Below are positions 289 to 7,576 of a stretch of 34,556 bases of DNA, piece after piece. The stretch lies in the UHGV virus genome UHGV-0341486; one strand, written 5' to 3'. Both the position numbers and the translations under genes were made by a program. The notes beneath the pieces are model-generated. The model did not search any database. It was not told the origin of the DNA and saw only the letters and a list, made by a program, of their open reading frames with translations. The first letter of the stretch is position 1, and each line of letters begins with the position of its first letter. The DNA is from a virus.

Positions 289-1431
289 CTATGCTGTTTT
301 GATATCTACGATAATCCAGTCTTTACCACGATCATCATTGTATCGGTCGGTCATTTTTCTGGATTTATGGCCTAACAACTTTTGCGTATCCAGACCCTGT
401 TCCCGATATAACCGTTCTGACAGAGATCGCTGCTCATGAAATGTGGGCGCAGTTCCTTGCTCCCATTTTATGCCACATTTTTCCCGGGCCTTTTTAAAAG
501 CCGTTGTCAGAGTATTTGCAGAAACCTGGTCTCCTCTGTTTGCTTGAGAGGTAGTGTGACGGTAATGGACCAGATATTTACTAACAACAGCATCCCTGCA
601 CTGAGATATAACTTCACGAAGGGTAATATTCAGAGCATCGCATTTCAGGTTAAGCGGAATAGCAAGTTTTGAACCGGTTTTTTCCTGAGTAATGTGCAAC
701 ATGTCGTCCCATATATCAGAGAATTTCAAATTGCAGATATCGCCTAAACGTTGTCCAGTAACAAGAGCAAGTAGCATGCCGCATTTTAAATAGGGCTGCC
801 GTCTGCTTACGCTGTCAAATATTGCCTGCCATTCGGGCAGTGACAATCTTTGGCGGTTTACTCGATTTCGCGGTTGTTTTGTTGCCTGCGCTGGGTTAAA
901 TCCTGGCGGAACATGTCCTGCGTGTTGTGCTTCTTTGAAGACGTCGATCAACACCATTCTCACGACTTGCGCCATCCTGTTATGACCTTCAGCCTTTACA
1001 GCATCAATTATTTCGGCAATATCAAGTGCGGTAATATCCTTGAGGTGTTGCATTCCACAATGCTCACGGAAAAGACGAATGGGTTTGCCTTTTTGCCGAT
1101 AGGAGTTGGGTCTTAGTTCATTATGTTGCAGCCTGTCCTCTTGGATAGAAATATATTTATCAAGCCATTCTGTCACCGTAATGTCTGAGCGCCTGCCTTT
1201 CATTCTTTCCAGACGCTCATTGACGCTTAATATTTGTCTGGTACGTTGTTCAGCAATAATGGTATTTGCTTCAGTAGCAACTTGTTTTGCTTCATTCTCA
1301 TCAGTTCCTAAGCTATGAAAACGACCGGATAGTGGATGTTTGTATTGCCAATATACCTTTCCGGTTCGCTTATCTAATTTGCAATATAAATTGGGTATAG
1401 AGATTTTGTGAGATCGGGGTCTAGCAGCCAT
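289..1431 (-). CDS. int: Phage integrase, tyrosine recombinase (380 aa)
   Basis: ORF with C-terminal catalytic region (…HKSRKMTDRY…); adjacent to the attachment region; 11-nt overlap with the upstream xis ORF. Confidence 0.92.
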   Translation of the reverse strand: MAARPRSHKISIPNLYCKLDKRTGKVYWQYKHPLSGRFHSLGTDENEAKQVATEANTIIAEQRTRQILSVNERLERMKGRRSDITVTEWLDKYISIQEDRLQHNELRPNSYRQKGKPIRLFREHCGMQHLKDITALDIAEIIDAVKAEGHNRMAQVVRMVLIDVFKEAQHAGHVPPGFNPAQATKQPRNRVNRQRLSLPEWQAIFDSVSRRQPYLKCGMLLALVTGQRLGDICNLKFSDIWDDMLHITQEKTGSKLAIPLNLKCDALNITLREVISQCRDAVVSKYLVHYRHTTSQANRGDQVSANTLTTAFKKAREKCGIKWEQGTAPTFHEQRSLSERLYREQGLDTQKLLGHKSRKMTDRYNDDRGKDWIIVDIKTA

Positions 1432-3149: not shown

Positions 3150-3310
3150 ACCGCCCCCCGTTTATTATTTATCTCCTCAGCCAGCCGCTGGGCTTTCAGC
3201 GGATTTCGGATAACAGAAAGACCGTGAAATACCCAGCCTCGCTTTGTAACGGAGTAGACGAAAGTGATCGCGCCTACCCGGATATTATCGTGAGGATGGG
3301 TCATCGCCAT
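3122..3310 (-). CDS. Hypothetical early-left protein (62 aa; lambda orf60a-like)
   Basis: Size and position immediately upstream of exo; overlaps both neighbours. Confidence 0.5.
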
Positions 3311-3981
3311 TGCTCTCCAAATACAAAACCAATTTCAGCCAGTGCTTCGTCCATTTTTTCGATGAACTCCGGCACCATCTCGTCAAAACTCGCCATGTAC
3401 TTTTCATCCCGCTCAACCACGACATAATGCAGGCCTTCACGCTTCATTCGTGGGTCATAGTTGGCAAAGTACCAGGCATCTTTTCGTGTCACCCACATGC
3501 TGTACTGCACCTGGGCCATGTAAGCCGACTTTATGGCCTCGAAACCACCGAGCCGGAACTTCATGAAATCCCGGGAGGTAAACGGGCATTTCAGCTCAAG
3601 GCCATTGCCGTCACTGCATAAACCATCGGGAGAGCAGGCGGTGCGCATACTTTCGTCGCGATAGATGATCGGGGATTCAGTAACATTCACGCCGGAAGTG
3701 AATTCAAACAGGGTTCTGGCGTCGTTCTCGTACTGTTTTCCCCACGCCAGCGCCTTAGCATTAACTTCCGGAGCCACACCGGTGCAAACCTCAGCCAGCA
3801 GGGTGTGGAAGTAGGACATTTTCATGTCAGGCCACTTCTTTCCTGAGCGGGGCTTTGCTATCACGTTGTGAACTTCTGAAGCGGTGATGACGCCGAGCCG
3901 TAATTTGTGCCATGCATCATCCCCCTGTTCGACAGCTCTCACGTCGATCCCGGTACGCTGCAGGATAATGTCCGGTGTCAT
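3301..3981 (-). CDS. exo: Lambda exonuclease (Red alpha), 226 aa
   Basis: Near-identical to recalled lambda Exo ([50 protein letters not shown]…). Confidence 0.95.
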
Positions 3982-4763
3982 GCTGCCACCTTCTGCTCAG
4001 TGGCTTTCTGTTTCAGGAATCCAAGAGCTTTCACTGCTTCGGCCTGTGTCAGTTCTGACGATGCGCGAATGTCGCGGCGAAATATCTGGGAACAGAGCGG
4101 CAATAAGTCGTCATCCCATGTTTTGTCCAGGGCAATCAGCAGAGTGTTAATCTCCTGCATGGTTTCATCGTTAACCGGAGTGATGTCGCGTTCCGGCTGA
4201 CGTTCCGCAGTGTATGCAGTATTTTCGACAATGCGCTCGGCTTCATCCTTGTCATAGATACCAGCAAATCCGAAGGCCAGACGGGCACACTGAATCATGG
4301 CTTTATGCCGTAACATCCGTTTGGGATGCGACTGCCACGGCCCCGTGATTTCTCTGCCTTCGCGAGTTTTGAATGGTTCGCGGCGGCATTCATCCATCCA
4401 TTCGGTAACGCAGATCGGATGATTGCGGTCTTTGCGGTAAATCCGGCACGTACATGATTCATTGTCCTGCTCAAAGTCCATGCCATCAAACTGCTGGTTT
4501 TCATTGATGATGCGGGACCAGCCATCAACGCCCACCACCGGAACGATGCCGTTCTGCTTATCAGGGAAGGCGTAAATTTCTTTCGTCCACGGATTAAGGC
4601 CGTACTGGTTGGCGACGATCAGCAATGCGATGAACTGCGCATCGCTGGCATCACCTTTAAATGCCGTCTGACGAAGAGTGGTGATCAGTTCCTGTGGGTC
4701 GACAGAATCCATGCCGACACGTTCAGCCAGCTTCCCAGCCAGCGTTGCGAGTGCTGTACTCAT
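3978..4763 (-). CDS. bet: Recombination protein Bet (Red beta), 261 aa
   Basis: Near-identical to recalled lambda Bet; start overlaps the exo stop region (ATGA-type coupling). Confidence 0.95.
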
Positions 4764-4768
4764 CCGTT

Positions 4769-5065
4769 TTATACCTCTGAATCAATATCAACATGGTGGT
4801 GAGCAATGGTTTCAACCATGTACCGGATGTGTTCTGCCATGCGCTCCTGAAACTCAACATCGTCATCAAACGCACGGGTAATGGCTTTTTTGCTGGCCCC
4901 GCAGCGTTGCAAATGATCGATGCAGAGTGATTCAAACAGGTGCTGTGGAAGACCTTTTTCCATGTCGTCTGCCAGTTCTGCCTCTTTCTCTTCACGGGCG
5001 ATCTGCTGGTAGTGACGCGCCCAGCTTTGAGCCTCAAGACGATCCTGAATGTAATAAGCGTTCAT
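4769..5065 (-). CDS. gam: Host-nuclease (RecBCD) inhibitor Gam, short 98-aa form
   Basis: [21 protein letters not shown]… matches lambda Gam from its internal start; AGGAG ribosome-binding site upstream. Confidence 0.92.
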
Positions 5066-5140
5066 GGCTGAACTCCTGAAAATGGCTGTGAAAATATCGC
5101 CTGCGAAATGCCGGGCTGATTAGGTAAACAGGAAAGGGGA

Positions 5141-5431
5141 TTAGTGATTCAGGCCGTTGCCGCGTCCGTCGAGAAAAACTTCCACGAGCAAATCACGGGT
5201 ATAAGTGCGCTCGATGCCGCGATGCAGATAAAGCCGTCCGCGTAAATTAGCTGATGCAGTCCAGGTACCATCTTTGTGTTTGACCAGCATTCCTGGCATG
5301 ACCGCACCGCGATTAACGGTCTGCGTTCCGTAATGTTGATGAACCATAAAAACTCCTGCCCGTAAGCTGGGCTGCTGAACATATAGAGACTTCTGCGCGT
5401 ATTCAGGCGGTGGATGGCCGCCGGTTGTCAT
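5141..5431 (-). CDS. Hypothetical protein (96 aa) in the position of lambda kil/cIII
   Basis: First ORF downstream of the leftward promoter; GAGG ribosome-binding site; no recognisable motif. Confidence 0.5.
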
Positions 5432-5619
5432 AACTAAGCCGCCTCGTTGAAGCGACTAAGGTATGAAATGTTGAGTTAATTTCAGCTGGTCACACCGACG
5501 TTCACGCGTCCGTTTCACCCCTCGCACTCCCCGAAGCCTGCTGAAATTCAAACTGCGGATCTAAGCGGTCATCGCAACGGTGAATCAGGTAGTTGCCGTA
5601 TCGTTGTGTTGTTGCGATG

Positions 5620-5700
5620 AACTTATTTAAAACTATAGTTGTTTTATCGTCAACAACAAAAGTTGTTTTATTGGTTGTTTTAGATATAACTGGTTGTATT
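5620..5700 (-). promoter_or_regulatory. Leftward early promoter/operator region (PL/OL-like): -35 TTGACG (about 5648-5653), -10 about 5625-5630, several GTTGTT/AACAAC half-sites
   Basis: Minus strand reads GTTGTTGACGATAAAACAACTATAGTTTTAAATAAG, closely parallel to the rightward element GTTGTTGACTAAAAACAACCATAGTTTTAATCTTG at 6678-6712. Confidence 0.55.
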
Positions 5701-5789
5701 TAGGATGGATTTATTTTGTGACTTGAATCGCATAGCGATAACTGAAGCGAGGTTATGGTGGTTTTTTTAACGGTGTGTGTGATGAGGGG

Positions 5790-5821
5790 AGGGCAAAAGA
5801 AAACCCGGCACGGTGACCGGG
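5790..5821 (-). terminator. Rho-independent terminator downstream of the repressor gene (stem CCCGG/CCGGG, then TTTTCTTTTG on the minus strand)
   Basis: GC stem-loop followed by a T-rich tract on the minus strand, about 120 nt past the cI stop. Confidence 0.55.
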
Positions 5822-5942
5822 ATTCTTACGCCGTTAGGTAAAGATATTATTGCGGTGGCTTAATATTACTACCTAGAGCAAAGATAGGAATTAGTTCTTT
5901 ACTGAATGAGCACAATGCCCAGTTGATAATTTTTAATTGGTA

Positions 5943-6632
5943 CTACCCATGCTTCCTATATGTCTGCGGCATGCTCCCAATAACCTTACCGAAGATGAAC
6001 ACCCGGTTCATCTCGTCTTTCTCGATCGGGTCCCACGGTGAGTAGCTTTTGTTATCAGAGATGACCAGCAGCTTATCCTTCATCATTTGCAGGCGCTTTA
6101 CATGGGCTGTGTCGTCGTACAGAAACGCATAGATACCATCACCGTCGAAAGATTTAACTGTGATATCAACGAACAGCAGATCACCTGGTTCGATCGTTCC
6201 TGACATGCTGTCACCACGCACGTTAATGATGCGGATATTTTCCGCCTTCCTACCATCGAACATGTGACGAGCATCGTCAAACGAGTACTCAACCGAGCGT
6301 AGAACTTCTACAAACTCACGGTTGATGACTCCCGGCCCAGCACTGACTTCTATATCAAGAACGTCAATCTTGAAGTATTTGGAATGGCTGACAGTTGATT
6401 GTATTGGTTGCACTGTACTGTCTGACATATTTCCAACGCCAGAAGATAACCATTCTGCGCGCACACCCAAAGCGTTCGCGATCTCCACGATTTTAGTTGT
6501 TTGATTAGCTTTCCCTGTTTCGATTTTCTGAATAGCAGCCTGGCTAACCCCGACCAAATCCCCAAGCGCCTTTTGTGTAAGGCCTCGCGCTAATCTGGCT
6601 TCTTTAAGTCTTTCTGAGAGTGTTGTTTTCAT
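5943..6632 (-). CDS. cI: Prophage repressor, CI-like: N-terminal XRE helix-turn-helix plus C-terminal S24 (LexA-like) autopeptidase domain; probable start MKTTLSERLKE, 229 aa
   Basis: HTH motif (…LTQKALGDLVGVSQAAIQKIETGK…), Ala-Gly cleavage site (VSAGPG), Ser (GDSMSG) and Lys (VKRL) catalytic dyad; divergent from the cro-like gene across an operator region. Confidence 0.88.
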   Translation of the reverse strand: MKTTLSERLKEARLARGLTQKALGDLVGVSQAAIQKIETGKANQTTKIVEIANALGVRAEWLSSGVGNMSDSTVQPIQSTVSHSKYFKIDVLDIEVSAGPGVINREFVEVLRSVEYSFDDARHMFDGRKAENIRIINVRGDSMSGTIEPGDLLFVDITVKSFDGDGIYAFLYDDTAHVKRLQMMKDKLLVISDNKSYSPWDPIEKDEMNRVFIFGKVIGSMPQTYRKHG

Positions 6633-6639
6633 AGTCCAA

Positions 6640-6736
6640 ATGTACAACCAAGGTTTTATTCCATCAAACGAAAATGGTTGTTGACTAAAAACAACCATAG
6701 TTTTAATCTTGATTCAAATTAACCACGGAGGTTGTT
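6640..6736 (+). promoter_or_regulatory. Rightward operator/promoter region (OR/PR-like): perfect 25-bp palindrome ATGGTTGTT-GACTAAA-AACAACCAT (6674-6698) overlapping -35 TTGACT (6681-6686); further GGTTGTT half-sites at about 6645-6650 and 6730-6736
   Basis: Inverted repeat with 9-bp arms read directly from the sequence, in the divergent cI/cro intergenic region. Confidence 0.7.
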
Positions 6737-6967
6737 ATGAACCCAGCTATCAAAACAGCGATCAATATCGTTGGTTCACAAAAGAAACTGGGCGCTGCTT
6801 GCGAAGTTTCACAGCAGGCCGTCTATAAGTGGCTTCACAACAAAGCAAAGGTATCCCCTGAACATGTCGGCAGCATTGTTACGGCTACTGGTGGAGTAGT
6901 GAAGGCATACCAGATTCGCCCGGATCTTCCGAAGTTGTTTCCACACACCGAAAAGAACGCAGCTTAA
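6737..6967 (+). CDS. cro: Cro-like early regulator (76 aa), YdaS/DUF1019-type HTH
   Basis: Small HTH protein (…GSQKKLGAACEVSQQAVYKWL…) divergent from the repressor; GGAGG ribosome-binding site 6 nt upstream. Confidence 0.8.
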   Translation: MNPAIKTAINIVGSQKKLGAACEVSQQAVYKWLHNKAKVSPEHVGSIVTATGGVVKAYQIRPDLPKLFPHTEKNAA

Positions 6968-6979
6968 ATTTCCATTTCA

Positions 6980-6993
6980 CGCTCTTTAACAAT
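6980..6993 (+). promoter_or_regulatory. boxA-like antitermination element CGCTCTTTAACAAT
   Basis: Matches the boxA consensus (rrn boxA GCTCTTTAACAAT) just downstream of cro, where lambda has nutR. Confidence 0.5.
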
Positions 6994-7036
6994 AAGCAAT
7001 CAACTTAACAGTCAATTCAAACTAAAGGAGTCAATT

Positions 7037-7576
7037 ATGCAACCACTTACATACCAACAGACTAGCGGATTTAGCCCGACTGCGGTGATAAATCGTTCTC
7101 AAACAAAACAGGTGCCAGGCCACGAAAAAATCCGTGATGCCGTCCGCGCCTGGTCGGCTGTAGATAATCAGGATGTCGTTGCCACACTCATTGTGAATGA
7201 GTATCTGGAGCAGGGCGGCGGCACCATCGATTTCCCTGATGATGTCAGCCGTGCACGCCAGAAGCTGTTCCGCTTCCTCGATAACAAATTCGATTCTGAA
7301 AAATACCGAAATAACGTGCGTGAACTGACCCCGGCAATTCTGGCGGTACTACCGCTGGAATATCGCGGTTACCTGGTTGAGCAGGATAGCTTCATGGCTA
7401 GGTTGGCTGAAATGGAAAAGGAACTCAGTGAGGCAAAACAGGCTGTCATTCTCAACGCACCACGCCACCAGAAACTGAAGGAAATTAGTGAAGGTATTGT
7501 GTCGATGTTTCGTGTGGACCCAGATCTGGCTGGTCCATTGATGGCGATGGTTACTACCATGCTGGGGGCGATATGA
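7037..7576 (+). CDS. CII-position regulatory protein, YdaT-like (179 aa)
   Basis: Position between cro and O; motifs EYLEQGGG and PAILAVLP recalled from Rac YdaT-family proteins. Confidence 0.5.
   Translation: MQPLTYQQTSGFSPTAVINRSQTKQVPGHEKIRDAVRAWSAVDNQDVVATLIVNEYLEQGGGTIDFPDDVSRARQKLFRFLDNKFDSEKYRNNVRELTPAILAVLPLEYRGYLVEQDSFMARLAEMEKELSEAKQAVILNAPRHQKLKEISEGIVSMFRVDPDLAGPLMAMVTTMLGAI

What the first reader, a model, noticed from the sequence alone, without database searches (positions are those of the whole stretch)
6980..6993. rrn-type boxA (CGCTCTTTAACAAT) downstream of cro without an evident boxB hairpin
A near-consensus boxA lies where lambda has nutR, but no boxB-like stem-loop follows it and no N gene is present. 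This suggests a host-factor (NusB/NusE) processive antitermination site of the rrn type, or a remnant nut site.
Basis: partly seen in the sequence, partly recalled or inferred. Interest (0 to 1): 0.4.

Follow-up and report, generated by a model that had tools for sequence, protein, structure and literature searches.

The report
Orphan boxA in N-less prophage
A perfect copy of the host-factor binding motif boxA sits just after the cro gene of a very common E. coli prophage. It is most likely the surviving half of an antitermination (nut) site whose hairpin partner and N protein are gone, so it is a modest curiosity rather than a new system.

Summary
CGCTCTTTAACAAT lies at 6980-6993 (+), 12 nt after the cro stop codon and 45 nt before the start of the YdaT-type cII gene. 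An exact match of this kind is not expected by chance. No hairpin follows or precedes it. The window has no N-like protein, no second boxA in the pL transcript, and no HK022-type put site.

Comparison explains where it came from. Cro homologs in other Enterobacterales are followed at the same spot by one of three things. Some have a full nutR (boxA plus boxB hairpins) with an arginine-rich N gene left of cI. Some have an HK022-type putR. Some have nothing. The window's 69-nt spacer aligns to those nutR spacers with the ~60-80-nt hairpin block missing.

Sister phages share the pL leader, kil, cII, O and P genes but have a different cI/cro. They have no boxA, so it is dispensable.

My verdict is an orphan nutR half-site (about 0.55). 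It probably still binds NusB/NusE. A working host-only Nus site cannot be excluded: it could protect against Rho like rrn boxA, or damp cII translation like suhB boxA. A second immunity type also carries a lone boxA.

In passing: the pL leader is an undescribed, covarying, pseudoknotted RNA family.

The parts
6980..6993 (+). boxA, CGCTCTTTAACAAT. It matches GYTCTTTAANA at 6981-6991. I read it as an orphan half of an ancestral nutR.
   Evidence: homologous position of nutR boxA in cro relatives
6737..6967 (+). cro, YdaS/P22_Cro-type HTH protein of 76 aa. The boxA travels with this gene's 3' end.
   Evidence: 80 IMG/VR loci encode an identical Cro; those copies that contain the cro 3' end anchor have a near-identical spacer.
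6968..7036 (+). 69-nt cro-cII spacer. It is unstructured, C-rich and G-poor (A27 C15 G6 T21). It contains the boxA, the direct repeat AGTCAATT (7011-7018 and 7030-7037) and the SD AAGGAG (7025-7030).
   Evidence: Homology to phage 4C10 starts only at 7036.
7037..7576 (+). YdaT-type cII-like gene (179 aa). This is the first gene downstream of the boxA.
   Evidence: Pfam PF06254 9e-30 and phrog_163; distant match to 8bt1
6681..6709 (+). Predicted pR (TTGACT, 17 nt, TAATCT) inside the operator inverted repeat ATGGTTGTT..AACAACCAT. This places the boxA at about +265 of the transcript.
   Evidence: Read from the sequence; inverted repeat listed. The promoter is inferred, not mapped.
5943..6632 (-). 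cI-type repressor (S24/LexA-like), followed by its terminator at 5804-5821.
5625..5653 (-). Predicted pL (TTGACG, 17 nt, TTAAAT).
   Evidence: Read from the sequence; inferred.
5466..5619 (-). Structured pL leader RNA: P1 hairpin, ACCGCUUAGAUCC, P2, GAGUGCGAGGGGUG, P4, GUGACCA, and the P3 pseudoknot arm. It occupies the place where nutL/N or putL would be. There is no boxA here.
5141..5431 (-). kil (phrog_294). This is the first gene of the pL operon, so no N gene lies between pL and the recombination genes.
   Evidence: alignment with phi80, HK225 and HK639
13103..13123 (+). Strong intrinsic terminator (9-bp stem, 7 G-C pairs) after the inverse-autotransporter moron. It lies between pR and Q (16020-16709).

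Best explanation
The motif is a genuine boxA by descent. It is the 5' half of the nutR site that accompanies this family of cro genes in N-dependent lambdoid phages. In this prophage lineage the other parts of the N system are gone: the boxB hairpin block, the N gene and nutL. What remains is a boxA embedded in a short, unstructured, C-rich spacer between cro and a YdaT-type cII gene that was joined on at its start codon. The boxA is still transcribed, at about +265 of the pR message, and by sequence should still bind NusB-NusE. It has no phage partner and is not needed for the early programme. Any remaining effect depends on host Nus factors only and is probably small. Shown: the sequence, the absence of boxB, N, nutL and put, the homologous nutR sites in relatives, and the absence of boxA in sister phages. 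Inferred: that the element is transcribed from pR, that it binds NusB/NusE, and that it has no essential role.
For: (1) The exact consensus boxA lies 12 nt after the cro stop codon. (2) In 14 Cro-homolog loci from other Enterobacterales species (63-79% identity) and in phages PA28 and PSTCR7lys, cro is followed 5-25 nt later by boxA (mostly CGCTCTTTAAC-type) plus one or two hairpins. All 13 of these loci that were examined encode an arginine-rich N-like ORF left of cI, or further left in the case of PSTCR7lys; in PA28 it is annotated as N. (3) In alignment A5 the window spacer matches the cro end, the boxA and the SD-proximal part of those spacers, but lacks the ~60-80-nt hairpin block. It is 69 nt long against about 115-150 nt. 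(4) The window has no boxB, no N, no boxA in the pL transcript and no put. (5) Phage 4C10 and its relatives share the pL leader, kil, YdaT-cII, O and P with the window but have another cI/cro. They have a 30-nt cro-cII spacer with no boxA. These are deposited as phage genomes, so the boxA is dispensable for that backbone. (6) The same cro family is also found followed by an HK022-type putR (UPF_BP1, phiEt88) or by nothing (HK639 and 10 genome loci). The cro 3' boundary is therefore a frequent mosaic joint. (7) There is no sign of special constraint. In a second immunity group the homologous spacer of L364 carries a degenerate boxA, CGTTCTTTAACGG.
Against: The boxA is still a perfect consensus and meets the published BoxA criteria: GYTCTTTAANA within 50 nt of a start codon. 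A second, unrelated cI/cro type in the same N-less phage group (L337, L361, L365) also has a lone boxA 8 nt after cro with no boxB. That is either a second remnant or a hint of function. All copies of this module are near-identical, so the lack of decay is uninformative, and so is the polymorphism count. rrn boxA alone is reported to suffice against Rho-dependent termination (established knowledge, not tested here). The spacer has a rut-like composition (C15, G6), so Nus binding could matter there.
Confidence: 0.55

Rival explanations
1. A working rrn-type site that uses host factors only. NusB-NusE bind the boxA in the nascent pR transcript and, with NusA, NusG and SuhB, make RNA polymerase resistant to Rho. 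This would secure delayed-early transcription without N.
For: The site is a perfect consensus boxA in the right place on the pR transcript. The phage lacks N and put. The boxA sits in an unstructured, C-rich, G-poor, rut-like tract. A second immunity type of the same N-less group has the same arrangement. It is established knowledge, not tested here, that rrn boxA alone confers read-through of Rho-dependent terminators.
Against: Sister phages with the same downstream genes lack it. cII-O-P overlap and are translated, which leaves little room for Rho. The obvious barrier before Q is a strong intrinsic terminator at 13103-13123 followed by a convergent gene. rrn-type complexes are not known to overcome this efficiently. 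There is no matching site on the pL side. The boxA is degenerate in L364.
Confidence: 0.2
2. A suhB-like BoxA. The Nus factor complex assembled on the boxA damps translation initiation of the YdaT-type cII gene 45 nt downstream. This would lead to Rho-dependent polarity and so tune the lysis-lysogeny decision.
For: The site meets the search criteria of Baniulyte et al.: GYTCTTTAANA within 50 nt upstream of a start codon. In suhB, repression persisted with up to 100 nt between BoxA and SD (PMC5725501). Here the boxA is 31 nt from the SD. The precedent of lambda N-nutL repressing N translation is cited in that paper.
Against: There is no conservation of this arrangement upstream of ydaT-type cII genes in relatives such as 4C10, HK639, L211 and L216. 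The SD AAGGAG with 6-nt spacing is strong. The site is intercistronic, not a 5' UTR. No entry for this junction was seen in the E. coli rows read from that paper's dataset (part 2 of 5).
Confidence: 0.1
3. The conserved sequence serves at the DNA level, for example as part of a PRE-like leftward promoter or a YdaT operator. On this reading its identity to boxA is incidental.
For: In CP-933P the ydaS-ydaT interval holds a YdaT-activated PRE and YdaT operators, TTGATTN6AATCAA (PMC9986795 and PMC8630535). The window spacer has AATCAA at 6998-7003 and two AGTCAATT repeats.
Against: Phage 4C10 has the same YdaT gene sequence from 1 nt before its start codon but a completely different 30-nt spacer. 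YdaT's targets should therefore lie elsewhere. The window YdaT is only distantly related to the CP-933P protein (E = 7e-4). The 12/12 match to boxA at the homologous nutR position in relatives is not plausibly incidental.
Confidence: 0.05

Closest known systems
nutR of N-dependent lambdoid phages (lambda, P22, 21/933W type)
   Same: Same position, just after cro in the pR transcript. Same boxA sequence as the nutR sites of Cro-homolog phages and prophages (PA28: CGCTCTTTAACA; L214 and L219: CGCTCTTTAAACAAT). It is embedded in a C-rich tract upstream of cII.
   Different: There is no boxB hairpin, no N protein and no nutL. The spacer is about half as long. The downstream gene is a YdaT-type cII, not a lambda-type cII.
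rrn operon leader boxA (Nus factor / SuhB antitermination complex)
   Same: The sequence is identical to the rrn boxA core (GCTCTTTAACAA). It depends only on host factors if it is active. boxA alone is reported to be sufficient in rrn.
   Different: It lies in a translated phage operon rather than an untranslated rRNA leader. There is no flanking boxB or boxC. There is no evidence of a downstream Rho-dependent terminator that needs suppressing.
suhB 5' UTR BoxA (Baniulyte et al. 2017, PMC5725501)
   Same: A lone BoxA that matches GYTCTTTAANA within 50 nt upstream of a start codon, in a pyrimidine-rich, rut-like context.
   Different: It is intercistronic in a phage operon and is not conserved upstream of orthologous genes.
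HK022/HK639 put RNA antitermination
   Same: An N-less lambdoid phage. Cro relatives (UPF_BP1, phiEt88) carry an HK022-type putR exactly where the window has its boxA. HK639 (Cro 62% identical) has an annotated putL-like RNA.
   Different: The window has no sequence resembling put on either side. Its pL leader is a different, pseudoknotted RNA, and nothing comparable exists on the pR side.

Membership tests
lambdoid nut site (N-utilisation site) | boxA sequence (CGCTCTT(T)A...) | tested here: met
   Exact CGCTCTTTAACAAT at 6980-6993.
lambdoid nut site (N-utilisation site) | boxB stem-loop a few nucleotides downstream of boxA | tested here: not met
   The MFE of 6960-7060 is -4.1 kcal/mol with z = 0.19 and an unpaired centroid. 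The 55 nt downstream fold to -3.7 kcal/mol, against values stronger than about -7 kcal/mol for most of the intergenic phage contexts listed in the output.
lambdoid nut site (N-utilisation site) | cognate N protein with an arginine-rich motif encoded in the early left operon | tested here: not met
   The pL operon is kil-gam-bet-exo plus small PHROG families of unknown function. The arginine-rich-ORF scan found no candidate. The 13 nutR-bearing relatives examined all have one.
lambdoid nut site (N-utilisation site) | second site (nutL) in the pL transcript | tested here: not met
   There is only one boxA-like match in the window at up to 2 mismatches. No GCTCTTWA occurs in 5100-5650.
rrn-type Nus-factor antitermination site | BoxA consensus GYTCTTTAANA in a transcribed region downstream of a promoter | tested here: met
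   GCTCTTTAACA at 6981-6991. The pR promoter is predicted from the sequence only.
rrn-type Nus-factor antitermination site | binding of NusB-NusE (and SuhB recruitment) to the nascent RNA | not testable with these tools
   Needs EMSA or ChIP.
rrn-type Nus-factor antitermination site | downstream Rho-dependent termination that is suppressed | tested here: inconclusive
   The spacer is rut-like (C15, G6), but cII-O-P are overlapping translated ORFs. The clear barrier before Q is an intrinsic terminator.
suhB-type BoxA-mediated repression | BoxA within 50 nt upstream of the regulated start codon | tested here: met
   45 nt to the ATG at 7037.
suhB-type BoxA-mediated repression | conservation of the BoxA upstream of orthologous genes | tested here: not met
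   ydaT-type cII genes in 4C10, HK639, L211 and L216 have no boxA upstream.
HK022-type put site | sequence and structure similarity to putL/putR downstream of pL and pR | tested here: not met
   No similarity of the pL leader to the HK022 region. The cro-cII spacer differs from the putR seen in UPF_BP1, phiEt88 and HK022. No covariance model for put was built.

The most novel reading that the evidence does not exclude
The lone boxA is a working, N-independent loading site for the host Nus complex on the pR transcript. Together with the undescribed pseudoknotted leader RNA at the 5' end of the pL transcript, it would form an early elongation-control system that needs no phage protein. The prophage module concerned is present in about 28% of complete E. 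coli genomes. The same pairing (leader RNA on the left, lone boxA on the right) recurs with an unrelated cI/cro in L337, L361 and L365.
Probability: 0.15. Interest if true: 0.7.

Novelty: new variant of a known kind. Interest (0 to 1): 0.3.

Why it matters
If the boxA is only a remnant, it is a clean example of how lambdoid mosaicism leaves half-sites behind. It is also a warning that a consensus boxA next to cro does not imply an N system or any antitermination. If it works with host factors alone, it would extend BoxA/Nus regulation from rRNA and suhB into the early operon of a prophage module found in 1515 of 5426 complete E. coli genomes. It would also give a natural system for asking whether the Nus complex protects from Rho or represses translation in a translated operon. 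This can be tested directly, because near-identical phages such as PhiR34_1 are recorded with E. coli K-12 MG1655 as host.

Tried and rejected
(1) Chance match: rejected, because no shuffle contained the exact 12-mer.

(2) A hidden boxB: rejected by folding and by comparison with other phage boxA contexts.

(3) A hidden N: the Pfam, PHROG and NCBIfam scans of the left-operon ORFs and the arginine-rich-ORF scan found none. My first kil query used out-of-frame coordinates (5149-5355) and gave no hit. The correct ORF, 5141-5431, is phrog_294 Kil.

(4) A put site: BLAST of the pL leader against the HK022 immunity region found nothing. BLAST of the leader against the window found no second copy. 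Rfam has no put family and gave no hit above threshold in the window or in HK022.

(5) Conservation as a test of function: the 80 IMG/VR loci returned for Cro all encode an identical Cro and have near-identical spacers, so they carry no information. The polymorphism count has no power.

A 3-sequence alignment worked.

(7) King et al. 2011 (PMC3187212), which describes the HK639 antiterminator RNAs, is not held.

(8) The Baniulyte supplementary list: no entry for this junction was seen in the E. coli rows read, which were part 2 of 5.

(9) The E. coli variant with a longer spacer (L366) was checked as a possible 'missing link' that keeps boxB. It is only a triplication of a 19-nt unit.

(10) Adjacent intrinsic terminators downstream of the pL leader RNA in L361 and L312: none found. 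A put-like role for that RNA is therefore unsupported by that criterion.

Full report
WHAT IS THERE. The window is a lambdoid prophage of E. coli. Over 5000-7700 it is 99.7% identical to phage PhiR34_1 (PV340559), whose recorded host is K-12 MG1655.

The early region reads as follows:
- int, 289-1431 (-)
- small ORFs of unknown function
- exo, 3301-3981 (-); bet, 3978-4763 (-); gam, 4769-5065 (-)
- kil, 5141-5431 (-), phrog_294
- a ~190-nt leader, then predicted pL at 5625-5653 (-)
- the cI terminator, 5804-5821 (-), and cI, 5943-6632 (-)
- operators and predicted pR, 6681-6709
- cro, 6737-6967 (+), YdaS/P22_Cro type
- a 69-nt spacer
- a YdaT-type cII, 7037-7576
- O, 7573-8592, and P, 8589-9290
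- an inverse-autotransporter adhesin moron, 9540-13091
- a strong terminator, 13103-13123
- a convergent esterase gene, 13128-14171 (-)
- ninB, ybcO and rusA
- Q, 16020-16709

THE OBSERVATION. CGCTCTTTAACAAT is at 6980-6993 (+). That is 12 nt after the cro stop codon, 31 nt before the SD AAGGAG (7025-7030) and 45 nt before the ATG at 7037. The exact 12-mer core occurs once in the window and in none of 100 shuffles. It matches the BoxA consensus GYTCTTTAANA that Baniulyte et al. derived for gamma-proteobacteria (PMC5725501).

The stretch 6960-7060 is essentially unstructured: MFE -4.1 kcal/mol, z = 0.19, centroid unpaired. I also scanned IMG/VR for the same 14-mer and folded the flanks of every hit. 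The window's context has one of the weakest downstream structures (-3.7 kcal/mol) and none upstream. Most of the other intergenic phage contexts listed have a clear hairpin on one side.

There is no second boxA. One site is found at up to 2 mismatches to the 13-mer, and no GCTCTTWA occurs in the pL leader. There is no N. The first pL gene is kil, and the other left-operon ORFs hit gam, bet, exo or PHROG families of unknown function. An explicit scan for arginine-rich ORFs found only NinE, a 46-aa ORF just upstream of Q, and ORFs that overlap longer ORFs in other reading frames.

WHERE IT COMES FROM. Close relatives say nothing about selection. The 80 IMG/VR loci returned for this Cro all encode an identical protein. 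The junction is present in 1515 of 5426 complete E. coli genomes.

More distant relatives are informative. I collected Cro homologs at 46-86% identity from GenBank phages and from one genome per species. Just after their cro stop codon they fall into three classes.

(a) boxA plus one or two hairpins, that is, a normal nutR. Examples are Stx phage PA28 (CGCTCTTTAACA followed by TCACCTCTAACAGGGTGA), Providencia phage PSTCR7lys, and 14 chromosomal loci from species assigned to Erwinia, Pantoea, Buttiauxella, Xenorhabdus, Photorhabdus, Providencia, Rouxiella, Izhakiella and Arsenophonus, among others. All 13 class (a) loci that I checked encode a small arginine-rich protein to the left of cI, or further left in the case of PSTCR7lys. 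Examples are MNRNQRRMAAYNA......GNAKTRRHERRR... and PA28's annotated N.

(b) A putR like that of HK022. This occurs in Salmonella phage UPF_BP1 and Erwinia phage phiEt88.

(c) Nothing: cro abuts the next gene. This occurs in HK639, 4C10 and 10 chromosomal loci.

The window is the odd one out, with boxA only. In an alignment with class (a) spacers it matches the cro 3' end, the boxA and the A/T-rich segment before the start codon. It lacks the ~60-80 nt that hold boxB and a second conserved hairpin (CAGTGGC...GCCACG). Its spacer is 69 nt against about 115-150 nt.

Homology to the 4C10 group starts at 7036, one base before the ATG. That group carries the same YdaT-cII, O and P. The present arrangement is thus a mosaic. 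A cro module kept the first element of its nutR and was joined to a cII module from an N-less backbone.

IS IT NEEDED? Phages of the 4C10, 4A7, 1W, 3W, D2 and Perceval group share the pL leader, kil, gam-bet-exo, YdaT-cII, O and P with the window but have a different cI/cro. In 4C10, whose sequence I read, the cro-cII spacer is 30 nt with no boxA. For the other members of that group, alignment to the window likewise begins only at the cII start. These are deposited as phage genomes, so this backbone does not require a boxA.

Downstream of the boxA, cII/O and O/P overlap by 4 nt. That leaves little untranslated RNA for Rho to act on. The obvious obstacle on the way to Q is a strong intrinsic terminator followed by a convergent gene. 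To my knowledge rrn-type complexes do not overcome this kind of barrier efficiently.

The few polymorphisms seen do not spare the boxA. There is one A-to-G change in the boxA. Elsewhere in the spacer there is one substitution, one deletion, one 12-nt insertion and one repeat expansion.

WHAT SPEAKS FOR RESIDUAL FUNCTION. The motif is a perfect consensus and by sequence should bind NusB-NusE (inference). It sits in a C-rich, G-poor (C15, G6), unstructured tract with rut-like composition.

It also fits the criteria under which Baniulyte et al. found functional BoxAs outside rRNA. In suhB the Nus complex represses translation and thereby promotes Rho termination, and this persists with up to 100 nt between BoxA and SD. 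So 'active' could mean protection from Rho or the opposite.

Most suggestive is a second case. In another subgroup of N-less phages that carry the same kind of pL leader RNA (L337, L361, L365), an unrelated cI/cro pair is followed 8 nt after cro by a lone CGCTCTTTAACGG and no hairpin. However, the homologous spacer in L364 has CGTTCTTTAACGG. Most other members of that RNA-bearing group have no boxA to the right of the immunity region. This pattern fits sporadic remnants better than an obligatory partner.

A DNA-LEVEL ALTERNATIVE. In CP-933P the ydaS-ydaT interval contains a YdaT-activated PRE and YdaT operators (PMC8630535 and PMC9986795). The window's YdaT is only distantly related to that protein. 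The same YdaT gene in 4C10 is preceded by an unrelated spacer. I therefore do not think the boxA is conserved as a YdaT or PRE element.

VERDICT. The best-supported reading is an orphan nutR half-site (about 0.55). It is a real boxA by descent, it probably still binds Nus factors, and it has no phage partner and no essential role. A functional host-only site is not excluded. That could be rrn-like protection from Rho (about 0.2) or suhB-like damping of cII (about 0.1).

The label 'rrn-type' adds nothing. CGCTCTTTAAC(A) is the ordinary boxA of this cro family's nutR sites; as I recall it, lambda's own boxA (CGCTCTTA) is the variant form. Interest is low to moderate.

A SIDE FINDING THAT BEARS ON THE QUESTION. 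In place of nutL and N, the pL transcript begins with a conserved structured RNA (window 5619 to 5478, - strand). Its architecture is:
- a 5' hairpin, P1
- the near-invariant sequence GA(U)GACCGCUUAGAY
- helix P2
- the invariant sequence (C)GAGUGCGAGGGGUG
- a 4-bp hairpin, P4, with loop UGAGAG (CGUGAA in the window)
- GUGACCA
- a 3' arm that pairs with the loop of P2, forming an H-type pseudoknot, P3

Pattern scans of IMG/VR recovered about 25 divergent members in addition to the E. coli copies. These include members in G+C-rich sequence. In the two loci whose gene context I checked (L312 and L256), the RNA lies just after a promoter-like sequence that follows the cI-type repressor gene on the same strand.

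The helices covary strongly:
- P2: TCCG/CGGG, TCACA/TGTGA, CTGAT/GTCAG, CTACGA/TCGTAG, CCCCAG/CTGGGG, CCAGAC/GTCTGG, TACAGC/GTTGTA
- P3: AATTTCAGC/GCTGAAATT, TATCAG/CTGATA, ATCTCAA/TTGAGAT
- P4: GACG/CGTC, CATG/CATG, GTAG/CTAC, TACG/CGTA

On alignment A4, P2 is 89% paired with 4 of 5 pairs changed on both sides. P4 is 95% paired with 3 of 4 pairs changed on both sides. No shuffle reached the observed covariation score.

A covariance model finds one copy in the window and none on the pR side. It finds none in HK022, HK639, phi80 or the Cro-homolog loci. The RNA has no Rfam match and underlies no annotated RNA feature in the GenBank phage hits. I found no paper on it.

Its position suggests a cis-acting elongation or antitermination element. 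Against that, I saw no intrinsic terminator just downstream in two members. Its function is therefore open.

Noticed in passing
window 5466-5619 (- strand); also L248, L256, L257, L283, L298, L312, L321, L337, L350-L365: An apparently undescribed structured RNA family at the 5' end of pL-type transcripts of N-less temperate phages. It has invariant ACCGCUUAGAY and GAGUGCGAGGGGUG blocks. Helices P1, P2 and P4 covary, and there is an H-type pseudoknot (P3). It has no Rfam hit and no GenBank RNA annotation. The window holds a single copy. It sits where nutL/N or putL would be; its function is unknown.
   Followed up: partly
L337, L361, L365 (boxA 8 nt after cro; about 1074 nt right of the leader RNA 5' end); L364 homologous spacer: A second, unrelated cI/cro type in the same RNA-bearing phage group also has a lone boxA (CGCTCTTTAACGG) with no boxB between cro and a cII-like gene. 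In L364 the same spacer carries CGTTCTTTAACGG.
   Followed up: partly
window 5395-5455 (- strand); phi80 L235 1500-1560; HK225 L236; HK639 L204 105-160: A conserved leader just upstream of kil is shared with phi80, HK225 and HK639. It contains a hairpin with compensatory changes (GTCGC/GCGGC, GAGTCA/TGGCTC, GGCAGA/TCTGCC) whose loop and 3' arm hold the kil SD. It is followed by the invariant ATGACAACCGGCGGCCATCCACCGCC. Those three phages have an intrinsic terminator (tL1A in phi80) immediately before it; the window does not.
   Followed up: partly
window 7011-7037; L366 400-475; L025 and L092: The cro-cII spacer contains the direct repeat AGTCAATT. One E. coli blood isolate has the 19-nt unit AGTCAATTCAAACTAAAGG in three tandem copies. 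Two IMG/VR contigs have a 12-nt insertion (ACTGATTAACAG) at 7010. The spacer is therefore prone to slippage, while the boxA is untouched.
   Followed up: yes
L205 (Salmonella phage UPF_BP1) 2740-2815; L208 (Erwinia phage phiEt88) 2745-2820: An HK022-type putR sequence (nearly identical in UPF_BP1; one substitution within the core in phiEt88) lies directly after Cro homologs 66-68% identical to the window's. This shows that nutR, putR and 'nothing' are interchangeable cassettes at the cro 3' boundary.
   Followed up: partly
IMG/VR loci L011, L017, L028, L036, L038, L072, L106, L114 (and L042, L116, L123): In several unrelated viral contigs the same 14-mer boxA is immediately preceded, not followed, by a hairpin (for example AAGCGCCCTATAGGACGCTT-CGCTCTTTAACAAT). 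In some of them an SD and start codon follow within about 15-60 nt. This is the boxB-boxA order seen in rrn leaders.
   Followed up: no
window 9540-14171: A moron block lies between P and ninB. It consists of a 1183-aa inverse autotransporter (IAT_beta plus Big_1/Invasin_D3 repeats), a strong bidirectional terminator (13103-13123) and a convergent BD-FAE/alpha-beta-hydrolase esterase gene. PhiR34_1 has ren, an SMR-family transporter gene and ybcK there instead.
   Followed up: partly
relatives of window 5440-5940: Between cI and pL, or just after pL, related phages carry variable cargo annotated as GevT/GevA, HipD/HipA and others. The window has none. This interval looks like an accessory-gene (possibly defence) hotspot.
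   Followed up: no
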